Below are positions 32 through 17,287 of a DNA stretch of 17,287 nucleotides, piece by piece (the first letter of the stretch is position 1; every line of letters begins with the position of its first letter). Both the position numbers and the translations under genes were made by a program. This stretch comes from a virus (taxonomy: Duplodnaviria > Heunggongvirae > Uroviricota > Caudoviricetes). The notes under the pieces were generated by a model. The model was not told where the DNA came from. It ran no database searches and saw only the letters and a list, made by a program, of their open reading frames with translations. The DNA is taken from positions 1 through 17,287 of the IMG/VR virus record IMGVR_UViG_2713896795_000005; one strand, 5' to 3'.

Positions 32-3676
<3,645 letters not shown>

Positions 3677-3748: not shown

Positions 3749-3919
3749 ATGGCTATGGATATTATGTCAGGTGCAAACCTAAAAGTAGAAGTAGGTACAA
3801 GTGCTGGTAACACACTAGCGACCGACTTTAAAGAAGTTCCCGAAGTTGCTAGCTTTACTACTTCTGGCTTTGAATCAGTTGTTATAGACGTAAAAACTTT
3901 CAACTCTTCATATAACCGT
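3749..3919 (+). CDS. Exon 1 of intron-containing small tail protein (putative major tail/tube protein by position)
   Basis: ATG 3749 preceded by AAGGAA (3734-3739). Unspliced reading stops at TAA 3923-3925 after 58 codons. Homologous to the fibre N-terminal domain (EVASFTTSGFESVV vs [13 protein letters not shown]). Confidence 0.6.
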
Positions 3920-4189
3920 GGATAAAATAGCGGCCTATAGTAGCAATACTATTTGAATAACTCCTTTAATTGCTGGAAACTCTTATTATTAAGTTAAAGA
4001 CAATCAGCAGCGAAACCATATTATATGGAACGTTCAACGACTAGCCGAAAGGCGTAGGGATTAAGTAATCTCGAAATGGGGAGAATCCGAAATATCGGAT
4101 TGTGATATAGTCTAATCTGTATAGAAATATGCAGCAGTCATAAAGACCGATGACGATGTAGTATTAACGCCACTACATGAATAAAAATG
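3920..4189 (+). ncRNA. Group I self-splicing intron, ~270 nt, no homing endonuclease ORF
   Basis: Conserved core elements: P AATTGCTGGAAAC (3968-3980), Q AATCAGCAGCG (4002-4012), R GTTCAACGACTAG (4032-4044), S GATATAGTCTAA (4104-4115). P4 pairing TGCTG/CAGCA and P7 pairing GACTA/TAGTC. 5' exon ends in U3919 with a candidate guide GCGG (3930-3933) pairing CCGU. Intron ends ...AAAAATG (G4189), like the T4 td intron 3' end. In-frame stops sit at both intron ends (TAA 3923-3925, TGA 4178-4180). Confidence 0.75.
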
Positions 4190-4477
4190 AAATTGCTCGG
4201 CACAAAATCGATCCCTGATATTGAACTAAGTGTTAACTATCTTGCGGATAATACAGTACACCAACAATTAGAGACTCTCGCAGACGAGCAAAAACGCTGT
4301 CAGATTCGTCTAAGCTACTATACTGATGCAACCCACACTACTGGTTTTTATGTAGTTTATACTTGCTTCGTTAGTTCCACTACTATTGATGGCGACAAAG
4401 ATGAAGTAGTAACTAAAGCATTCAACCTAGCTGTAGACGGTGCAGCCGTTGAATCAGGTACACTACCTTCTATCTAA
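4190..4477 (+). CDS. Exon 2 of intron-containing small tail protein
   Basis: Same frame as exon 1; removing 3920-4189 (270 nt) joins ...SSYNR to KLLGTKSIPDIELSVNYL..., collinear and gap-free against the fibre N-domain (...SSGYSEKLLAEQDIGNIEVVVNYL...). Shared GDKD-x-VVTK motif near the C-terminus. Stop TAA 4475-4477. Confidence 0.6.
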   Translation, partial: KLLGTKSIPDIELSVNYLADNTVHQQLETLADEQKRCQIRLSYYTDATHTTGFYVVYTCFVSSTTIDGDKDEVVTKAFNLAVDGAAVESGTLPSI

Positions 4478-4542: not shown

Positions 4543-4845
4543 ATGAATCTACAAGACATCCTAAAAAAACTATCTCCAAAAAAACATACTTTTAATATTG
4601 AAGGTGCAGAATTTTTTATTCACCGTGCACGTTCTAAAGATATTGAAGCATTAAACAAGCCACTAGAGGCAATCATGGTTTGTACTTGTGATGAAAATGG
4701 CGATCCAATCTTCAGTACCGAAGATATCGAAGGACGTATTAATCTAAATGCTCTTGATTCAGAATATGTATCAAAAATCTATCTAGCTATTATTGAATTG
4801 TATAAAGACCATTCTGATATACAGGACGAAATCGAAAAAAAATAA
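4543..4845 (+). CDS. Tail assembly chaperone (lambda gpG-like)
   Basis: 100-aa acidic ORF immediately upstream of the tape measure gene, with AAGGAA SD, ending in a poly-A slippery tract. Called from synteny and the frameshift arrangement. Confidence 0.6.
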   Translation: MNLQDILKKLSPKKHTFNIEGAEFFIHRARSKDIEALNKPLEAIMVCTCDENGDPIFSTEDIEGRINLNALDSEYVSKIYLAIIELYKDHSDIQDEIEKK

Positions 4846-5240
4846 TAGAGGATCATGAATTACGCACCTATCTAGATTTAATTACTACTAATGGGATTAG
4901 TATTAGTGAGATGGAAAATTTAGATCCTGATTTGTTTATGGCTATTAGGATCTATAAATCCTGTATGAGTAGTAAGGCAGAAAAAACGCAGATGTTATAC
5001 CACGCCCATACATGCTACCTAATGGCTATGTACTCTAATATATCAACTGATTATAAAAAGGGTCTATCTTATACTGATTTTGACTTTCTGGATATTCTTG
5101 ATGATTCTCTAACAACTAAAGAACGTGCGGAAAAGAGAAAACAAAATTCAATCAAAAAGCAATCTAACGATATTGCACAAATGGGAGAATATATTAAAAA
5201 CCTAGCTCAACAAGGAAGTAAGAAAGATGGCAAAAAATAA
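4543..5240 (+). CDS. GT-like frameshift fusion chaperone (G-like ORF joined to ORF 4911-5240 by -1 shift at ~4842)
   Basis: Frame of ORF 4911-5240 has no stop between the slippery site and 4911. Its 3' end overlaps the tape measure start (5227). This is the conserved G/GT arrangement of long-tailed phages. Confidence 0.5.
4836..4842 (+). promoter_or_regulatory. Programmed -1 ribosomal frameshift slippery heptamer A AAA AAA
   Basis: Heptamer lies in the zero frame of the G-like ORF two codons before its stop (4843-4845). The -1 frame is open from the TGA at 4815-4817 through to 5240. Confidence 0.55.
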
Positions 5241-7425
5241 CGATAAAATTAGAGTAGAAATAGATGGCGATAGTACCGGACTGTCTAAATCACTACAGCA
5301 GGCAGAAAATAAAATTGATGCCTTTGGCAAGAAGGCTGGCGGTACTTTAGGTGGTATGGCATCGAGTACAGGTCAAGTATTCGATACTCTATCCCGTGGT
5401 GTATTGGGTGTTGCAGGTGTTGCTACTAGTGCTGGTATTGCGGTTGCAGCCTTTGCACTTAAAGTTAATGATGCAGTACGCGAACTAAACCAATTATCAA
5501 AACAGTCCGGTATGTCGGTATCACAACTACAGAAGCTACAGAAGGCATTCTATCAAACTGGTATTGGTGCCGAAGGTCTAGCAGATATCAACCAAGATAC
5601 CCTAGATAAAATGGGTGAGGGATATGCAGCAGGAACAGGTGAATTTGTTAACGTCATCAAAGAAATGGGCTTAAACGTAAATGACTTTACAAAGTACGTA
5701 GGTAAGGCTAATGGCGGGATCGAGTCCATGTCACAACTTTACTTTAAGTTGAAAGATGCTGGTAAGACACAAGCCGAAATCGCGTATGCAATGGAAGCAG
5801 TAGCAAGTAATGGATATCGATTAGCTGGCGTATTAGGTGACTTCAAAACACATGAAGATGCAATGATTCATATTCAGAAGCAATCAGTAGCAGTATCTGA
5901 TGAACAGGCTAAAGCATTCTCAAAATTTGATGATAATATTAATAAATTATCTACTAGTTTCCAAACCTTATCAGTAAAAGGTGCTACGCCATTAGTTGCA
6001 AAATTAAATGAACTACTAGACGTATTGAATAGTAATGATTTAGGTAGTAATACCTTTATGGATCAGTTGACAGGAAAAACTCTTGCAGCAAATAAAGCAT
6101 TATCTATTAATGAACAGTTAATGGGTAAGGTTTCGAAAGAATTAGTTCCAGGAAGATTAGCAGGTAATAAAGGTAATGAAGCGGACTTTATTGCAAAGAG
6201 TAAGCGAGATGGTGATATTGCATTTGCAAAATTAAATGCAAAGAAAGAATCTGTTAATAATCCACGTGGTGATAAGGCTTGGACTGAAATCGAAGATCCC
6301 GCAAAGATTAAACAGAAAGCCGAAGCAGCAGCGAAAGCAAGAAAGGCAGCAGAAGATAAGGCAGCTAACGAGCGTATTGCAGCACAAAAGGCATTAGATA
6401 AAATCTTAGTAGATCAAACTATCGGTACTAATGAGCGTCAATTAGCAGAGTTTGAACGCCAACAGAAAGAGATAGTAGAAACTATTAGGAAGAGTGCTAA
6501 AACATTAGGACTATCAGATGAGAAACTACGCCAGCTATTAAATGATCAAGTTACAGCAGGTGCAGCAAGTAGACTACAGATGATTAATCAAATGGTTGGT
6601 TATTCCAATCCAAATGAAACTACTAATCAGCAAAATAGTCTATTAGCTAGTGGACAAGTTGGGGCAGCAGGTCAAGCATTCTTAGGTAATCAGATTGATG
6701 AAACTTATGGAGTGGATAATACACAATATAAGCTAGACCAGATGAACGAAGAAAGAGAAGCAATCCTCCGCCAGAATGATTTACTAATTCAGGACAAGGA
6801 ATCATTTGAAAAACGTAAAGCAGCTATTACAGCACACTTCGCAGCGAAAGCAGTACAGATTCAGAACCAAGAAACAATGAAAACTCTCTCTATTTCTGCC
6901 GATGCAATGTCTCAAATGGGGGCAGGTATGGCGGCGGCTTTTGGTGAGTCATCCGGTGCGGCTCAGGCGTTCTATGCAGTACAACGCGGTCTAACTATCA
7001 GTATGACTATCATGAAGATTCAAGAGGCGTTAGCTAGTGCACTATCATTAGGTTTCCCACAAAACATTCCAGCTTATGCACAAATTGCAGGAATGGGTAT
7101 GTCTATCATCAGTACCGCCAAGGGTGCTAGTGCTGGTCAGTTCCACGGTGGCGTAGATGAAATACCCGCTAACTTGAATAATAAATCTTTTATTCTTAAA
7201 GAGGGTGAACGCGTAGTTCAACCAGAGGCCAATACTAAATTGACTCGTTTCCTAGATCGTCAGGAATCAGGTGGTGATAATACTTCTGGTGCTGGTGAAA
7301 TTGTTGTTAATGCCCCAATGTATGTTTACGGTGCAGATAATGATCAACAATTCCAGGAGAAACTAAAGAAACATAAAGACAGTATCGTACAGGCTGTACG
7401 TGATTCACAACGTCGTAACTCATAA
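5227..7425 (+). CDS. Tail tape measure protein
   Basis: 732 aa, Ala/Gln/Lys-rich with long predicted helical segments, directly downstream of the chaperone pair; SD AAGGAAG at 5213-5219. Confidence 0.85.
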   Translation: MAKNNDKIRVEIDGDSTGLSKSLQQAENKIDAFGKKAGGTLGGMASSTGQVFDTLSRGVLGVAGVATSAGIAVAAFALKVNDAVRELNQLSKQSGMSVSQLQKLQKAFYQTGIGAEGLADINQDTLDKMGEGYAAGTGEFVNVIKEMGLNVNDFTKYVGKANGGIESMSQLYFKLKDAGKTQAEIAYAMEAVASNGYRLAGVLGDFKTHEDAMIHIQKQSVAVSDEQAKAFSKFDDNINKLSTSFQTLSVKGATPLVAKLNELLDVLNSNDLGSNTFMDQLTGKTLAANKALSINEQLMGKVSKELVPGRLAGNKGNEADFIAKSKRDGDIAFAKLNAKKESVNNPRGDKAWTEIEDPAKIKQKAEAAAKARKAAEDKAANERIAAQKALDKILVDQTIGTNERQLAEFERQQKEIVETIRKSAKTLGLSDEKLRQLLNDQVTAGAASRLQMINQMVGYSNPNETTNQQNSLLASGQVGAAGQAFLGNQIDETYGVDNTQYKLDQMNEEREAILRQNDLLIQDKESFEKRKAAITAHFAAKAVQIQNQETMKTLSISADAMSQMGAGMAAAFGESSGAAQAFYAVQRGLTISMTIMKIQEALASALSLGFPQNIPAYAQIAGMGMSIISTAKGASAGQFHGGVDEIPANLNNKSFILKEGERVVQPEANTKLTRFLDRQESGGDNTSGAGEIVVNAPMYVYGADNDQQFQEKLKKHKDSIVQAVRDSQRRNS

Positions 7426-13536: not shown

Positions 13537-13863
13537 ATGGCAGGATGGGAAAATATAATTGCCGTCATAATAGCTTTGGGTGCTTTTATTTGGAATCTCA
13601 TTAGAGATAAATTCGCAGACTTTAAAACACTTGAATCACGACTGGCTAAAATAGAATCAGATTTAGCACATACTAAATCGGACGTAGAAAGGTTAGAAAA
13701 GGGTCAGGATGATTTAGAATCAGCACTCAATGATTTACGTTCTCAGATTCATTCAATGGATCTAAAAATAGAACGAGTGATAGCAATATTAGAAAAAAAT
13801 AAGGGGCTTATTGCCCCTTTTCTTTTTGCTATTTGTTTACTAATTGATAAATCATATCTTTAA
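13537..13863 (+). CDS. Membrane-anchored coiled-coil protein (lysis-associated candidate: i-spanin-like or holin-like)
   Basis: N-terminal TM segment (IIAVIIALGAFIWNLI) followed by a predicted heptad-rich helical region. The 3' end reads through the terminator hairpin and overlaps the convergent lysozyme gene by 35 nt. Paralogue of the frame-split ORF at 15968-16218. Confidence 0.55.
   Translation: MAGWENIIAVIIALGAFIWNLIRDKFADFKTLESRLAKIESDLAHTKSDVERLEKGQDDLESALNDLRSQIHSMDLKIERVIAILEKNKGLIAPFLFAICLLIDKSYL
13801..13828. terminator. Bidirectional rho-independent terminator shared by convergent genes
   Basis: AAGGGGC (13801-13807) / GCCCCTT (13813-13819) hairpin; + strand followed by TTTCTTTTT, - strand followed by ATTTTTTTC. 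Confidence 0.6.
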
Positions 13864-14281
13864 CGCGGTTAGGTGTCTGACGATACCATAGACTATCTTT
13901 AGCCTGAATAATCGCCCCCTTCCAATCCTTGCGGTGTAGTGCTGCAATCATCTTCTTGAACTTCTTAACACCACCTAAACCCAACTGAAAGGCCATAATA
14001 ACTAAGAAGTCTTGCCAGTCCTTCGGTAAGTCCAAGCCCAATGTTTTAACATCCTTGATAGTACGGTCAATATCCCATGCCAGTAGTAAATCTGCATCAA
14101 TGGCACTGATACCGTTTTTGTACTTTTCGATTTCATTAGGTAGGATCTTATGTCCGTAACCGATTGTAGCGTACCCTTCGGTATCCACATATGGGTAGAA
14201 CTTGTCTTGTCGATAGTATCCGCGTACTCGTTGGTATTCTTTAGTACCTTCATATAGTTTTAATCTTTCTTTAATGTCCAT
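13829..14281 (-). CDS. T4-type lysozyme (glycoside hydrolase family 24 endolysin)
   Basis: Close match to the T4 lysozyme pattern: E11 in LKLYEG, DTEGYATIGYGH (T4 DTEGYYTIGIGH), SLWYRQTPNRVKDM (T4 SRWYNQTPNRAKRV). No signal peptide. Confidence 0.85.
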   Translation of the reverse strand: MDIKERLKLYEGTKEYQRVRGYYRQDKFYPYVDTEGYATIGYGHKILPNEIEKYKNGISAIDADLLLAWDIDRTIKDVKTLGLDLPKDWQDFLVIMAFQLGLGGVKKFKKMIAALHRKDWKGAIIQAKDSLWYRQTPNRVKDMIYQLVNK

Positions 14282-14319: not shown

Positions 14320-14757
14320 ATGGTGTGGGATATGTTTGATCCAGAAGTCTGGAATATAAAAGATGTAGATTCTGGCAACTATGCCGCATTTGTTTACTTA
14401 ATTCAGTTTGATAATGGTAGTTGGTATATTGGTATGAAACAGATATATCAGGGCGTTAAAGATATTAAAAAATTAAAGTCCAGTACCAAACAATCGAACT
14501 GGAAGGACTACACATCAAGTAGTAGAACAGTAAATGCCTTAATTGACGCAGGGGAGGACTATAAAAAGTATGTTCTATGGTGTTTCCCTACTGCGAACCA
14601 AGCAAGCATAGTAGAAACGGCCTTAATCGCTACGAGTGGACTACTACCGCATAATCTGAATAAAGCCATACTTGCAAAGGCAAGACTACCAGCGAGCGAT
14701 ACAGACGCGTTAAAGCTATTTAAAATTGTAAAAGGACTAATAGGATCTCTAACATGA
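14320..14757 (+). CDS. Hypothetical protein, possible GIY-YIG nuclease-like fold
   Basis: FVYLIQFDNGSWYIG gives a V-Y-L ... (9 aa) ... Y-I-G spacing like GIY-YIG motifs; later IVETALI and PHNLN could supply the Glu and Asn. No clear catalytic Arg. AAGGA SD; stop overlaps the next start. Confidence 0.4.
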   Translation: MVWDMFDPEVWNIKDVDSGNYAAFVYLIQFDNGSWYIGMKQIYQGVKDIKKLKSSTKQSNWKDYTSSSRTVNALIDAGEDYKKYVLWCFPTANQASIVETALIATSGLLPHNLNKAILAKARLPASDTDALKLFKIVKGLIGSLT

Positions 14758-15335: not shown

Positions 15336-15656
15336 ATGAATTTAGAAGAACATCACTATGGGGAGGAAGTTAACGAGATTACATTAGATGGGGTAACACC
15401 ATTTGGTAATTCATATCAGTTCGAACTTTTTCAACTAGACAATAAGAAAATAAAAAAGAAAGTTAAAACTTTTGCACCTGATATTAAAACTTATATGAAT
15501 GTAGTTTTCTCCTATAAGCAATCACAGTGGACTGATGGGGATATACTAACATGGACGTATAAAAGTATACCCTTTGAAGTAGTGCTACTCGATTCACATT
15601 TTATCAGTGTTAAGGGTAAACATTTCTATCAATATGTAATAGGAGTAAAAAAATGA
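15336..15656 (+). CDS. Hypothetical protein
   Basis: 106-aa ORF starting 4 nt after the upstream stop. No family recognised. Confidence 0.5.
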   Translation: MNLEEHHYGEEVNEITLDGVTPFGNSYQFELFQLDNKKIKKKVKTFAPDIKTYMNVVFSYKQSQWTDGDILTWTYKSIPFEVVLLDSHFISVKGKHFYQYVIGVKK

Positions 15657-15946
15657 TTAGTATCTTAGTAGAACTATTAAAATCTGGTATGGATTTTTTC
15701 ATCAGGAAAAAAATAGTGGAAAAAGAAGTTCAGAAAACTAACGCCGAAGGACAAATAGAAGTAAACAAAGAAGAAATTGAAAGAGTATCATTTCACTGGC
15801 GTAACACACTTGGATTTGTGTTAACTATGATTGTGGCTTACAACTGGTTAATAGTACCGCTGCTAGATGCGTTTGGAATTGTAGTTATTCAAGTCCCATT
15901 AGGAGAATTGCTTACTATCCTACAAATCATGATTGGCGGAGTATAA
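15653..15946 (+). CDS. Small membrane protein (two C-terminal hydrophobic helices)
   Basis: 97-aa ORF overlapping the upstream stop (ATGA). Hydrophilic N-terminal half, then two hydrophobic segments (GFVLTMIVAYNWLIVPLL, IVVIQVPLGELLTILQIMIGGV). Confidence 0.5.
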   Translation: MISILVELLKSGMDFFIRKKIVEKEVQKTNAEGQIEVNKEEIERVSFHWRNTLGFVLTMIVAYNWLIVPLLDAFGIVVIQVPLGELLTILQIMIGGV

Positions 15947-15967
15947 AAACAAAATAAGGATAAAGTA

Positions 15968-16218
15968 ATGGACTACATCGCGTTAGGGGGGCTATTAATG
16001 GCTTTTTTACATTTATGGCTCGTCTACTCTATAGACGAAAACAAGAGATCTTAGAAGCTGAAAGACGTATAAGTGATATTGAAAGTATGCTTCTAGTATT
16101 AGAAACTAAAATAGAAAGTAATGAAGCAGATATTGATGAATTGTATGATTTAGTACGGGATTTATCAAAAATAAAAAGTGACACTTCAAAAATTAAAGGA
16201 ATATTAAAATCTAAATGA
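15968..16218 (+). pseudogene. Frame-disrupted paralogue of the 13537-13863 coiled-coil membrane protein
   Basis: A 28-codon ORF (15968-16054, MDYIALGGLLMAFLHLWLVYSIDENKRS, AAGGA SD) carries the TM helix. The coiled-coil part is in the -1 frame (ORF 16015-16218). One extra A in the A4 run at 16038-16041 would give a single ORF collinear with the paralogue. Confidence 0.5.
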
Positions 16219-16318: not shown

Positions 16319-16564
16319 TTATTCACATTTCCATATGGTATTTTGTACACCCGTACCGGCGGGTAGATGTGGGTTAACATTAGCACTATGTGTATAGGTT
16401 GCTTTTGATTTTCCATATTGCTTACATGCGGCATCTGCTGTCTTCTGTAAGCTATCTAACCCGTACCATCCGTCTGATTGGATACTGACTGTTTTACCAT
16501 CGTTGTACTGAACCATTGCACAACCAGATACAAGGATTGACATTGCAAATACTATTTTTTTCAT
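16319..16564 (-). CDS. Small lipoprotein, probably outer-membrane (candidate Cor/Llp-type exclusion lipoprotein)
   Basis: Signal peptide MKKIVFAMSILVSG-C with lipobox V-S-G-C and Ala at +2; mature part ~66 aa with two further Cys, one next to the C-terminus. AAAGGG SD upstream on the - strand. Confidence 0.65.
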   Translation of the reverse strand: MKKIVFAMSILVSGCAMVQYNDGKTVSIQSDGWYGLDSLQKTADAACKQYGKSKATYTHSANVNPHLPAGTGVQNTIWKCE

Positions 16565-16606
16565 CCTAAGACCCTTTAATTTATTATTTTATATTCTGTA
16601 GTGTTT

Positions 16607-17287
16607 TTATTTTCTTTCATAACAAAATACATCTTCAAATCTTATCTCTAAATTATTATAAATTTCTATAGCATTTTTATAATTGATGTTTATTTGTTCG
16701 TTGTTTTTTTGCCAACAAAAGTATCTATTAAAATAGGTCATGTCAATTGCAGACTTAATGAAATCTTGAATGCTCTCTCTGGTATTATCTGCGGCTGTGA
16801 TGTAATTAATATACTCTATTTCTGCCTTGCAGTGCATATCCCACGAACCTAACGTTTTTATCTCCACTAATAATTGTGCGACCTCAATATTTAAAGATCT
16901 GCTAAGATCTAATAATTCATTGGCTATATTTTTCATTTTTGTATTTTCAGTTGGAGATAATTCTTTGCACTGTGAGTATTCATCGCAGAAGTTATCATAT
17001 CCACTTTTAAGTGAATGAAGTTTTATAAATGATTGAGTCATGTTCATTAGTATTTTTTCTGCATGTTCAAAACCTTTATTTTTGACTCTATCTTTCAACC
17101 AGTTACGAACACTTAAGGCTGCATATATTGCAGACCCAGCAACTACAGTATCCATAATGGCAGAAACAGTACTGCTTGTAAATTCATGTAAAAATAATAC
17201 ATCTAAGTAGATTGCTGTCAATACACCAAGACTGAAGTACATAATATGTGAAAATTCTATTTTATCAACTAAGACTCTAATATTCAT
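16607..17287 (-). CDS. Membrane protein with two N-terminal TM helices and a ~160-aa soluble domain, unknown function
   Basis: 226-aa ORF whose ATG sits on the last three bases of the window, so the true start may lie beyond it. Hydrophobic segments MYFSLGVLTAIYLDVLFL and AIMDTVVAGSAIYAALSV. Roughly 20-30% GC by spot counts of two 60-nt lines, versus ~30-50% in two tail-gene lines. Confidence 0.55.
   Translation of the reverse strand: MNIRVLVDKIEFSHIMYFSLGVLTAIYLDVLFLHEFTSSTVSAIMDTVVAGSAIYAALSVRNWLKDRVKNKGFEHAEKILMNMTQSFIKLHSLKSGYDNFCDEYSQCKELSPTENTKMKNIANELLDLSRSLNIEVAQLLVEIKTLGSWDMHCKAEIEYINYITAADNTRESIQDFIKSAIDMTYFNRYFCWQKNNEQININYKNAIEIYNNLEIRFEDVFCYERK

What the first reader, a model, noticed from the sequence alone, without database searches (positions are those of the whole stretch)
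13793..13863. Coiled-coil membrane gene reads through a bidirectional terminator, with a slippery A7 tract at the junction
ORF 13537-13863 passes through the terminator hairpin (13801-13819) and overlaps the 3' end of the convergent lysozyme gene. This adds a 21-residue hydrophobic tail (GLIAPFLFAICLLIDKSYL) that its paralogue lacks. Just upstream, an A7 run (13793-13799) forms a canonical heptamer A AAA AAT with TAA in the -1 frame at 13800-13802. A -1 slip, or an A8 allele, would end the protein at ...ILEKK, at the position equivalent to the paralogue's stop. This could be a recoding site giving two isoforms, a phase-variable tract, or a homopolymer sequencing error.
Basis: seen in the sequence. 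Interest (0 to 1): 0.6.

Follow-up and report, generated by a model that had tools for sequence, protein, structure and literature searches.

The report
One-base deletion extends prophage lysis gene
The long reading frame comes from an ordinary one-base deletion in a run of eight A's at the end of a small E. coli prophage membrane protein gene; most relatives keep eight A's and stop just before the terminator, so this is a mutation hot spot, not programmed recoding.

Summary
The window is an E. coli prophage. More distant homologues are 86-95 aa, end soon after a conserved KIERILTILEK motif, and never have a hydrophobic tail. In 77 of 77 viral relatives the gene is followed by a hairpin and a convergent lysozyme. 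The A-rich last codons double as the U-tract of the lysozyme terminator.

A7 alleles sit on at least three separate haplotypes, each with an A8 sister 0-13 SNPs away over 2.85 kb. Several are seen in independent assemblies. The tract is therefore a real, recurrent slippage hot spot. An equal-length A8 tract in the same prophage, the tail-chaperone frameshift site, almost never varies.

Programmed frameshifting is not supported. The hairpin starts 0-2 nt after the heptamer, and neither the site nor the tail is conserved. A sequencing error in this particular assembly cannot be fully excluded. The finding is ordinary and of low interest.

The parts
13537..13863 (+). ORF as it stands in the window (A7 allele), 108 aa. 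It has an N-terminal membrane segment (about residues 5-22), a coiled coil, a conserved C-terminal motif ...KIERVIAILEK, and then a 21-residue frameshift-derived tail.
   Evidence: The same allele occurs in other assemblies.
13537..13802 (+). Extent of the ancestral gene. With A8 instead of A7 (one base longer) it encodes the 88-aa protein ending ILEKK, with TAA at the position of 13800-13802.
   Evidence: The 88-aa proteins P0002, P0003 and P0007-P0009. DNA alignments. Family length of 86-95 aa.
13793..13799 (.). A7 homopolymer (A8 in most relatives). On the + strand it supplies the last Lys codons. On the - strand it is the U-tract of the lysozyme gene's intrinsic terminator. It is a recurrent 1-nt indel hot spot.
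13794..13800 (+). A AAA AAT. It formally matches X_XXY_YYZ, but it is a by-product of the deletion.
   Evidence: Read. Not conserved in relatives.
13800..13802 (+). TAA. It is the ancestral stop codon, now in the -1 frame.
13801..13819 (.). GC-rich hairpin (7 bp stem, 5 nt loop) of a bidirectional intrinsic terminator. It is followed by TTCTTTTT on the + strand and by T7 (13799-13793) on the - strand.
   Evidence: A hairpin with flanking A/T tracts occupies the same place in 77/77 related viral loci, with several unrelated stem sequences.
13820..13827 (+). T-rich tract of the + strand terminator. In this allele it is translated as part of the hydrophobic tail.
13829..14281 (-). Convergent T4-type soluble lysozyme gene (150 aa). 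Its stop lies 9 nt before the hairpin on its own strand.
   Evidence: It is conserved downstream and convergent in all 77 viral relatives.
13829..13863 (.). 35-nt antisense overlap between the extended ORF and the lysozyme 3' end. The overlap is absent in A8 alleles.

Best explanation
The window carries a derived one-base deletion (A8 to A7) in the last codons of a small prophage gene. The gene encodes an N-terminally membrane-anchored coiled-coil protein that always sits tail-to-tail with the phage lysozyme gene. In the ancestral arrangement the gene ends GAA AAA AAA TAA (ILEKK*), immediately in front of a shared bidirectional terminator. The A-run therefore does two jobs: it is two Lys codons on one strand and the U-tract of the lysozyme terminator on the other. 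An uninterrupted A8/T8 run is prone to replication slippage, and the deletion has arisen repeatedly. The deletion puts the old stop out of frame. Ribosomes then read through the hairpin and the T-tract, whose T-rich codons give a hydrophobic tail, into the antisense of the lysozyme 3' end, up to a fortuitous TAA at 13861-13863. Shown here: the allele states, their recurrence, the ancestral length of the family, and the conservation of the terminator. Inferred: the deletion is neutral or mildly harmful while the prophage is silent. Transcripts that stop at the terminator would lack an in-frame stop and would be handled by tmRNA; read-through transcripts would give the 108-aa product. A low level of the normal 88-aa protein could still arise by unprogrammed -1 ribosomal or transcriptional slippage on the A-run.
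For: 1. Majority state. The 88-aa ILEKK* proteins account for about 189 contigs, against about 20 with the EKNKG... frame. A8 is present in all deep sub-clades of the E. coli group.
2. L014 and L019 (A8) have exactly the same downstream sequence as the window and differ only in run length.
3. Over 5-6 kb, the A-tract is the only indel between the window and each of six close relatives.
4. Recurrence. L025 (A7) differs from L024/L027/L028 (A8) by 0 substitutions in 2.85 kb. The window (A7) is 13 SNPs from L021 (A8) but 40 from the other A7 haplotype. L016/L017 (A7) are 3 SNPs from L014 (A8). The proteins P0010 and P0014 show the same frameshift on two further backgrounds.
5. All A7 lineages are shallow tips, while A8 spans the whole tree.
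6. Family level. Homologues at 25-59% identity are 86-95 aa and end 0-9 hydrophilic residues after KIERILTILEK; none has a hydrophobic tail.
7. In 77/77 viral loci the gene is followed by a hairpin and a convergent lysozyme. The stop lies just before the hairpin or in its loop (...AAA GGG GCA TAA = KGA*). A-runs there are mostly 3-6.
8. Control. The equal-length A8 tract at the tail-chaperone frameshift site of the same prophage family shows an A7-like end in 2 of 150 contigs, against 20 of 209 here (Fisher p about 0.001). This argues against a general A8 sequencing artefact and for different selection on the two tracts.
9. A7-frame proteins have NCBI isolate accessions as well as Logan/ENA contigs.
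Against: No raw reads could be inspected, so for this assembly (GCA_001077955.1, the only record with this exact protein) an assembly error is not excluded. Contig counts are not phylogenetically independent. Recombination could move an A7 tract between haplotypes, instead of new mutation. The fate of the product (tmRNA tagging or the 108-aa protein) and the fitness effect are untested. All observed changes are deletions, with no A9; this fits the known deletion bias but could also hide selection.
Confidence: 0.78

Rival explanations
1. Homopolymer sequencing or assembly error in this particular genome: the isolate really has A8 and the 88-aa gene.
For: The window's exact 108-aa protein (with F26) is on record from a single assembly. 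Its nearest relative (L021, 13 SNPs away) has A8. Reads were not available.
Against: The same A7 state occurs on other haplotypes in independent NCBI, ENA and Logan assemblies. The tract is the only indel in 5-6 kb, although the stretch holds other A6-A7 runs. The equal-length A8 tract of the tail-chaperone site is almost never miscalled in these collections.
Confidence: 0.12
2. A phase-variable (contingency) tract. Reversible A7/A8 slippage would switch the protein between a single-anchor 88-aa form and a tailed or unstable form. This could tune prophage lysis, or could be selected in the host to disarm the prophage.
For: There are at least 3-5 independent A8->A7 events among very close haplotypes. 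About 10% of contigs carry A7. The E. coli H120 allele combines A7 with a +1 in an upstream A5 run, which restores the original stop; this could reflect selection to regain the normal end. The nearest outgroup (L035/L036) has A7 in frame with a stop in the hairpin loop, so the tract length has changed in deeper history too.
Against: A8 is short for a dedicated contingency locus. Only deletions are seen, and no reversal is demonstrated. A7 lineages are all recent tips, as expected for transient neutral or slightly harmful mutants. From remembered E. coli mutation rates (rough, not computed here), an indel rate at an A8 run comparable to the substitution rate of some hundreds of bases would give this many events with no selection. 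The change affects only the last residue plus a tail, so it is not an on/off switch of the body of the protein. The gene is a late phage gene, silent in the lysogen.
Confidence: 0.07
3. A programmed -1 ribosomal frameshift (or programmed transcriptional slippage) at A AAA AAT, stimulated by the hairpin. It would give a fixed ratio of the 88-aa and 108-aa isoforms.
For: A formal X_XXY_YYZ heptamer, a -1 frame stop immediately after it, and a stable hairpin downstream. The wild-type 12-mer GAAAAAAAATAA is identical to the prophage's own tail-chaperone frameshift site, so some slippage on such runs is plausible.
Against: The stem starts 0 nt after the heptamer (2 nt for the GC core), whereas stimulators generally start 5-8 nt downstream (PMC4066793). 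In that paper's E. coli survey, A_AA.A_AA.U is not among the 18 motifs selected for combining more than 0.1% frameshifting without a stimulator with under-representation, and the sibling motif A_AA.A_AA.C is called inefficient. The heptamer exists only in the minority deletion alleles. Distant relatives have interrupted A-runs and no slippery site. The zero-frame tail differs in sequence and length between lineages (14, 20 and 62 extra residues). The hairpin is fully explained as a terminator conserved in 77/77 loci.
Confidence: 0.03

Closest known systems
Indel mutation hot spots at homopolymeric A/T runs (replication slippage), and the 'leaky' frameshift alleles they create
   Same: There is a single-base length change in an A8 run. 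It recurs on independent backgrounds and shifts the frame at the 3' end. AAAAAAA is noted as under-represented in E. coli genes, possibly because of transcriptional slippage or high indel rates (PMC4066793).
   Different: Nothing essential differs. The only local twist is that the run is kept in place because it also serves as the U-tract of the convergent gene's terminator.
Tail assembly chaperone G/GT programmed -1 frameshift of long-tailed phages (present in this same window at 4835-4842)
   Same: The 12-mer GAAAAAAAATAA is identical in wild-type alleles, and the slippery run is followed at once by a stop.
   Different: At G/GT the -1 frame stays open for 130-135 codons up to the tape-measure gene. 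The tract is conserved down to about 75% protein identity and almost never varies. At the gene studied here the alternative frames give short, unconserved tails and the tract is polymorphic.
Non-stop mRNAs made by an intrinsic terminator placed before any in-frame stop, the classical tmRNA (ssrA) substrates (from my own knowledge: Keiler, Waller and Sauer 1996 used a trpA terminator in this way)
   Same: In the A7 allele the terminator hairpin and T-tract lie inside the reading frame, 34-60 nt before the stop. Terminated transcripts would therefore have no stop codon.
   Different: Here the arrangement arose by natural mutation. Whether termination or translation-coupled read-through dominates is untested.
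Phage Mu gp25 'releasin', Pfam DUF2730 (PMC9239132)
   Same: A small protein with an N-terminal membrane segment, no positive charge before it and RDK after it (which suggests N-out, C-in), and a helical cytoplasmic part. It is encoded next to the endolysin gene. DUF2730 proteins are also found paired with soluble endolysins.
   Different: The Pfam score is below the gathering cut-off (23.9 and 20.5 against 24.9). hhalign against Mu gp25 gives 1.7% probability. The prophage sits at a fixed chromosomal site (yegD-alkA) in many strains rather than being Mu-like and transposable. Generic coiled-coil families score just as well.
Phase-variable contingency loci with homopolymer tracts (for example Neisseria or Haemophilus surface genes)
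   Same: Tract-length polymorphism among near-identical genomes changes the reading frame.
   Different: The tract is short and at the extreme 3' end, so the protein body is unaffected. It lies in a silent late prophage gene, and no evidence of reversible switching was found.

Membership tests
Programmed -1 ribosomal frameshift site | Slippery heptamer X_XXY_YYZ in the zero frame | tested here: met
   A AAA AAT at 13794-13800, with zero-frame codons AAA AAT.
Programmed -1 ribosomal frameshift site | Stimulatory structure starting about 5-8 nt downstream of the heptamer | tested here: not met
   The stem starts at 13801 (spacer 0 nt) and the GC core at 13803 (spacer 2 nt). The 5-8 nt rule is from PMC4066793.
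Programmed -1 ribosomal frameshift site | The site, and both protein products, are conserved in relatives | tested here: not met
   About 90% of contigs have A8 with an in-frame stop. Distant relatives have interrupted A-runs. The tails differ in sequence and length.
Programmed -1 ribosomal frameshift site | Measured frameshifting above background | not testable with these tools
   Needs a reporter assay or mass spectrometry.
Phase-variable homopolymer (contingency) locus | Tract length differs between otherwise near-identical genomes, through independent events | tested here: met
   A7 and A8 sisters lie 0, 3 and 13 SNPs apart over 2.85 kb on three haplotypes. Two further backgrounds are seen at protein level.
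Phase-variable homopolymer (contingency) locus | Reversible switching in both directions and heterogeneity within a population | not testable with these tools
   No reads or culture data. Only A8->A7 changes are seen, and none to A9.
Phase-variable homopolymer (contingency) locus | The switch turns expression of a selected function on and off | tested here: inconclusive
   The shift replaces only residue 88 and adds a tail; residues 1-87 are intact. The function of the protein is unknown.
Bidirectional intrinsic (Rho-independent) terminator | GC-rich hairpin flanked by an A-tract upstream and a T-tract downstream, between convergent genes | tested here: met
   (both strands). Folding z-scores of -4.2 and -3.8.
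Bidirectional intrinsic (Rho-independent) terminator | Structure conserved at the same position in relatives | tested here: met
   77/77 loci have a stable hairpin at the gene end. There are at least four unrelated stem sequences, and T-tracts follow. Actual termination was not measured.
DUF2730 / Mu gp25 releasin | Pfam PF10805 score at or above the gathering cut-off | tested here: not met
   23.9 bits for the window protein and 20.5 for P0002, against a cut-off of 24.9. Only 7 of 25 family members match at E<0.01.
DUF2730 / Mu gp25 releasin | Detectable homology to Mu gp25 | tested here: not met
   hhalign of family alignment A3 against Mu gp25 gives probability 1.7%. The template was a single sequence, so sensitivity was low.
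DUF2730 / Mu gp25 releasin | N-terminal membrane segment, cytoplasmic C-terminal domain, and a gene close to the endolysin gene | tested here: met
   Hydropathy, charge distribution read from the sequence, and an adjacent lysozyme in 77/77 loci. The topology is inferred, not measured.
DUF2730 / Mu gp25 releasin | Carried by Mu-like transposable phages (PMC9239132) | tested here: not met
   The prophage lies at the same yegD-alkA site in many strains. This points to site-specific integration.
Two-component spanin (Rz/Rz1) | An i-spanin with an embedded or adjacent o-spanin lipoprotein gene | tested here: not met
   There is a weak PHROG hit to Rz-like spanin (E 1e-4). No lipoprotein ORF lies within or next to the gene, and the charge pattern suggests the coiled coil is cytoplasmic.

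The most novel reading that the evidence does not exclude
In this E. coli prophage clade the A-run, adjacent stop and terminator hairpin could act as a deliberate isoform generator. Wild-type GAAAAAAAATAA is the same 12-mer the phage uses for its tail-chaperone frameshift. Slippage there (ribosomal, transcriptional or mutational) would add a short hydrophobic C-terminal anchor to a lysis-associated membrane protein. The tailed and untailed forms could then work as a regulator pair for lysis timing, loosely like holin and antiholin. The A7 allele would hard-wire the tailed form.
Probability: 0.04. Interest if true: 0.6.

Novelty: already known. Interest (0 to 1): 0.15.

Why it matters
It matters little beyond annotation. 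The 108-aa protein models deposited for this gene (for example WP_049595132.1) are frameshift variants of an 88-aa protein, and the hydrophobic 'second anchor' is a translation of terminator and antisense sequence. The case shows that a formally canonical slippery heptamer next to a hairpin can be the scar of a homopolymer deletion at a gene end that shares its A-tract with a terminator. The same window offers the real thing, the G/GT site, as an internal contrast. If the tract were shown to switch at high rate, it would be a modest example of a mutational hot spot in a prophage lysis module.

Tried and rejected
- Megablast of the locus and tblastn of the 108-aa protein against 50,697 phage records found no match, so no annotated phage relative could be used. 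The lysozyme alone hits only distant T4-type lysozymes.
- Only 2 of 5,426 complete E. coli genomes carry the locus, at 85% identity, and both have the 88-aa gene.
- A pattern scan of one-genome-per-species contigs found nothing. The viral and metagenome scans gave only three loci.
Their A7 state is therefore inferred from protein sequence only. I got around this with look-ups of the neighbouring lysozyme and the 215-aa protein.
- The look-up of the 96-aa tail protein gave too few contigs for a control. It was replaced by a protein-cluster comparison for the chaperone gene.
- Releasin/DUF2730 membership was rejected as unproven.
- A profile search of solved structures gave only generic coiled coils.
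- The spanin reading was rejected because there is no o-spanin ORF.
- Rfam has nothing at the site above threshold. There are two sub-threshold sRNA-model hits of 23-26 bits against a gathering score of 50, which I take as most likely terminator-like matches.
- Structure prediction was not run, because a single helix plus a frameshift tail would not discriminate between the hypotheses.

Full report
**1. Checking the observation**

The region reads ...ATA TTA GAA AAA AAT AAG GGG CTT ATT GCC CCT TTT CTT TTT GCT ATT TGT TTA CTA ATT GAT AAA TCA TAT CTT TAA. ORF 13537-13863 is 108 aa. The A7 run is at 13793-13799. A AAA AAT (13794-13800) fits X_XXY_YYZ in the zero frame, and TAA at 13800-13802 is in the -1 frame.

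The hairpin AAGGGGC/TTATT/GCCCCTT at 13801-13819 is picked up as terminator-like on both strands. It folds far better than shuffled sequence (z -4.2 and -3.8). The convergent 150-aa gene at 13829-14281 is a T4-type lysozyme (Pfam E 4.8e-9) and overlaps the ORF by 35 nt.

Two details need softening:
- The window is 37.7% GC and holds six A7 runs and one A8 run, plus four T7 runs, so the run alone is not remarkable.
- The 'paralogue' (16015-16218, 67 aa) is only weakly similar over a coiled-coil stretch (BLASTP E 0.019; hhalign probability 62%).

**2. Origin of the window and the state of relatives**

The window is an E. coli prophage (source GCA_001077955.1). In many strains it is inserted at yegD next to alkA.

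A protein search found four clusters. Their members fall into two classes:
- 88-aa proteins ending ...AILEKK*: P0003 (80 contigs), P0007 (68), P0008 (19), P0009 (15) and others, about 189 contigs in all.
- Proteins reading ...AILEKNKG... into a tail: P0001, P0005, the window's own P0006, P0010, P0014 and the H120 allele P0004, about 20 contigs.

At the DNA level the 88-aa genes end GAA AAA AAA TAA, that is, A8. L014 and L019 have A8 and are otherwise identical to the window through the hairpin and beyond. Over 5-6 kb the A-tract is the only indel between the window and each of six close relatives.

**3. Real allele or artefact?**

The A7 frame is present in NCBI isolate assemblies as well as in ENA and Logan contigs, and for several backgrounds in more than one sample.

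The same prophage family has a second A8 tract of identical sequence context (GAAAAAAAATAA) at the end of the tail assembly chaperone gene (window 4835-4842). This gives an internal control. Across six protein clusters only 2 of 150 contigs show an A7-like end there, against 20 of 209 at the gene studied here (Fisher p about 0.001, with the caveat that contigs are not independent). A general A8 sequencing artefact should hit both tracts alike. For the window's own assembly an error still cannot be excluded, because its exact haplotype is on record only once and no reads were available.

**4. Recurrence**

A substitution matrix over 2.85 kb of flanking sequence shows the following:
- L025 (A7) is identical to L024, L027 and L028 (A8).
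- The window (A7) is 13 SNPs from L021 (A8) but 40 from L025 (A7).
- L016/L017 (A7) are 3 SNPs from L014 (A8) and more than 118 from the rest.

At the protein level, the body of P0001 equals P0008 and the body of P0005 equals P0007. P0010 and P0014 show the same shift on two more divergent backgrounds, with different tails of 14 and 62 extra residues. That makes at least three, and probably five, independent deletions.

All A7 lineages are shallow tips, while A8 spans the whole depth of the clade. This pattern is expected for a neutral or slightly harmful hot-spot mutation in a gene that is silent during lysogeny. From remembered E. coli mutation rates (a rough estimate, not computed here), an A8 run mutates by indel about as often as a few hundred bases mutate by substitution. 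That rate would give this number of events without any selection.

**5. What the gene and its end normally look like**

An exhaustive HMMER search gave 40 hits. The true homologues, at 25-59% identity, are 86-95 aa. They share an N-terminal membrane segment and a conserved C-terminal KIERILTILEK motif followed by 0-9 hydrophilic residues. None has a hydrophobic tail.

In 77 of 77 related viral contigs the gene is followed by a stable hairpin and then a convergent lysozyme homologue. The stems differ between sub-groups (AAGGGGC, AAAGGCAAG, AGGGATAGTA, GGGAAGGT...) but keep the same position. They have A-rich sequence before and T-rich sequence after, which is good comparative support for a bidirectional terminator.

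The stop codon lies either just before the hairpin or inside its loop (...AAA GGG GCA TAA TGCCCC, giving ...KGA*). Partial overlap of the coding sequence and the terminator is therefore normal for this family. What is abnormal in the window is passing right through the hairpin.

The A-rich last codons are the template of the U-tract that follows the hairpin on the lysozyme strand. In most relatives this tract is interrupted (runs of 3-6), and only the E. coli clade has an uninterrupted A8. The nearest outgroup (L035/L036) reads GAA AAA AAT AAA GGG GCT TAA (ILEKNKGA*), that is, A7 in frame with a stop in the loop. This suggests a possible history:
- a +1 change created the early ILEKK* stop in the E. 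coli clade;
- the loop stop then decayed;
- a later return to A7 now finds no stop until 13861.

**6. Programmed frameshifting**

The hairpin begins directly after the heptamer (spacer 0 nt, or 2 nt to the GC core). Stimulatory structures generally start 5-8 nt downstream (PMC4066793). In that paper's E. coli survey, A_AA.A_AA.U is not among the 18 motifs selected for combining more than 0.1% frameshifting without a stimulator with under-representation, and A_AA.A_AA.C is described as inefficient.

The heptamer exists only in the minority deletion alleles. The tail is not conserved. The hairpin is fully accounted for as a terminator. The true programmed site of this phage, for contrast, is at 4835-4842. 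There the -1 frame stays open for 132 codons up to the tape-measure gene, and both the tract and the open frame persist at 75% protein identity. Some unprogrammed slippage on A7, ribosomal or transcriptional, may still restore a little 88-aa protein. This is inference.

**7. Likely consequences (inferred)**

If the + strand terminator works, transcripts end near 13820-13828, before the new stop. These would be non-stop messages of the kind rescued by tmRNA, with the product tagged for degradation (established knowledge, not tested here).

If close coupling of translation suppresses the hairpin, transcription reads antisense into the lysozyme gene and the 108-aa protein is made. Its tail is as hydrophobic as the N-terminal anchor (Kyte-Doolittle mean 2.3 over 15 residues). 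It has only 14 uncharged residues between K89 and D104. The lysozyme coding sequence is unchanged, and its U-tract shrinks from 8 to 7.

**8. Function of the protein**

The constant pairing with a lysozyme points to a lysis-associated role. The best named resemblance is Mu gp25 'releasin' (DUF2730). That protein has an N-terminal anchor and a cytoplasmic helical domain, is encoded near the endolysin, and is sometimes paired with soluble endolysins (PMC9239132).

Membership is not established, for these reasons:
- The Pfam scores are below the cut-off.
- hhalign against Mu gp25 gives 1.7% probability.
- Coiled-coil families such as XhlA and FlaC score similarly.
- The prophage is not Mu-like.
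- A spanin reading lacks an o-spanin partner.

**9. Verdict**

This is an ordinary, real and recurrent homopolymer deletion allele at a gene end that shares its A-tract with a terminator. It is not a recoding device. Interest is low. The residual novel reading, a deliberate isoform switch, has a probability of about 4%.

Noticed in passing
window 3749-4477 (intron about 3922-4189): A group I intron (Rfam RF00028, 81.9 bits against a gathering score of 50, full-length model match at 3910-4134) splits the major tail protein gene. ORF 3749-3925 and ORF 4187-4477 align end to end (...SYNR | KLLGTK...) with the intact 150-aa Phage_tail_3-like protein of intron-less relatives (L121). The 5' exon ends in T (3921) and the insert ends in G (4189), as expected for group I splice sites.
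   Followed up: partly
window 4835-4842 (ORF 4543-4845 and ORF 4911-5240): This is the classic tail assembly chaperone G/GT programmed -1 frameshift site. GAAAAAAAATAA ends the 100-aa chaperone ORF, and the -1 frame stays open for 132 codons up to the tape-measure gene (5227-7425). The tract and the open frame are conserved in relatives at 75% protein identity (L113-L128). It is the same 12-mer as the wild-type end of the gene under study.
   Followed up: yes
L016 3226-3267 (E. coli H120, GCA_000190855.1) and the IMG/VR copy L017/L034; equivalent to window 13764 and 13793: A double frameshift allele. The upstream A5 run is A6 and the terminal run is A7. Eleven residues are scrambled (IERVIAILEKK becomes NRTSDSNIRKK), but the original stop and the 88-aa length are restored. 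This is either a compensatory second-site change or two homopolymer errors in an older assembly.
   Followed up: partly
window 14320-14757 (+): A free-standing GIY-YIG SegE-like homing endonuclease gene (Pfam E 1.6e-17) lies directly next to the inverted lysozyme gene. The segment 14605-14737 is a patch of dense differences, with paired one-base gaps, between the window and L014/L016. It looks like a divergent or recombinant stretch.
   Followed up: no
window 32-3676 (+): A 1214-aa ORF. Its N-terminal 400 residues match a major tail protein family (phrog_158). The rest matches tail fibre families, and the neighbouring-locus annotation shows a Peptidase_S74 domain. This is an unusual fusion-like architecture upstream of the split major tail gene.
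   Followed up: no
window 15653-16218 and 16319-17287: A 97-aa protein with a sub-threshold match to GTA_holin_3TM (22.6 bits against a cut-off of 24.8) is the likely holin. The 67-aa coiled-coil ORF (16015-16218), an 81-aa lipoprotein-like ORF (MKKIVFAMSILVSGC..., 16319-16564, - strand) and a 226-aa ORF are cargo. They differ between otherwise similar prophages, several of which instead end at a truncated yegD next to alkA.
   Followed up: no
L035 and L036 (IMG/VR), gene end about 2740-2790: The nearest outgroup has A7 T A3 GGGGCT TAA, read as ILEKNKGA* with the stop in the terminator loop. In many more distant relatives the stop codon also lies in the hairpin loop. The position of the stop relative to the shared terminator has moved repeatedly in this family.
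   Followed up: partly
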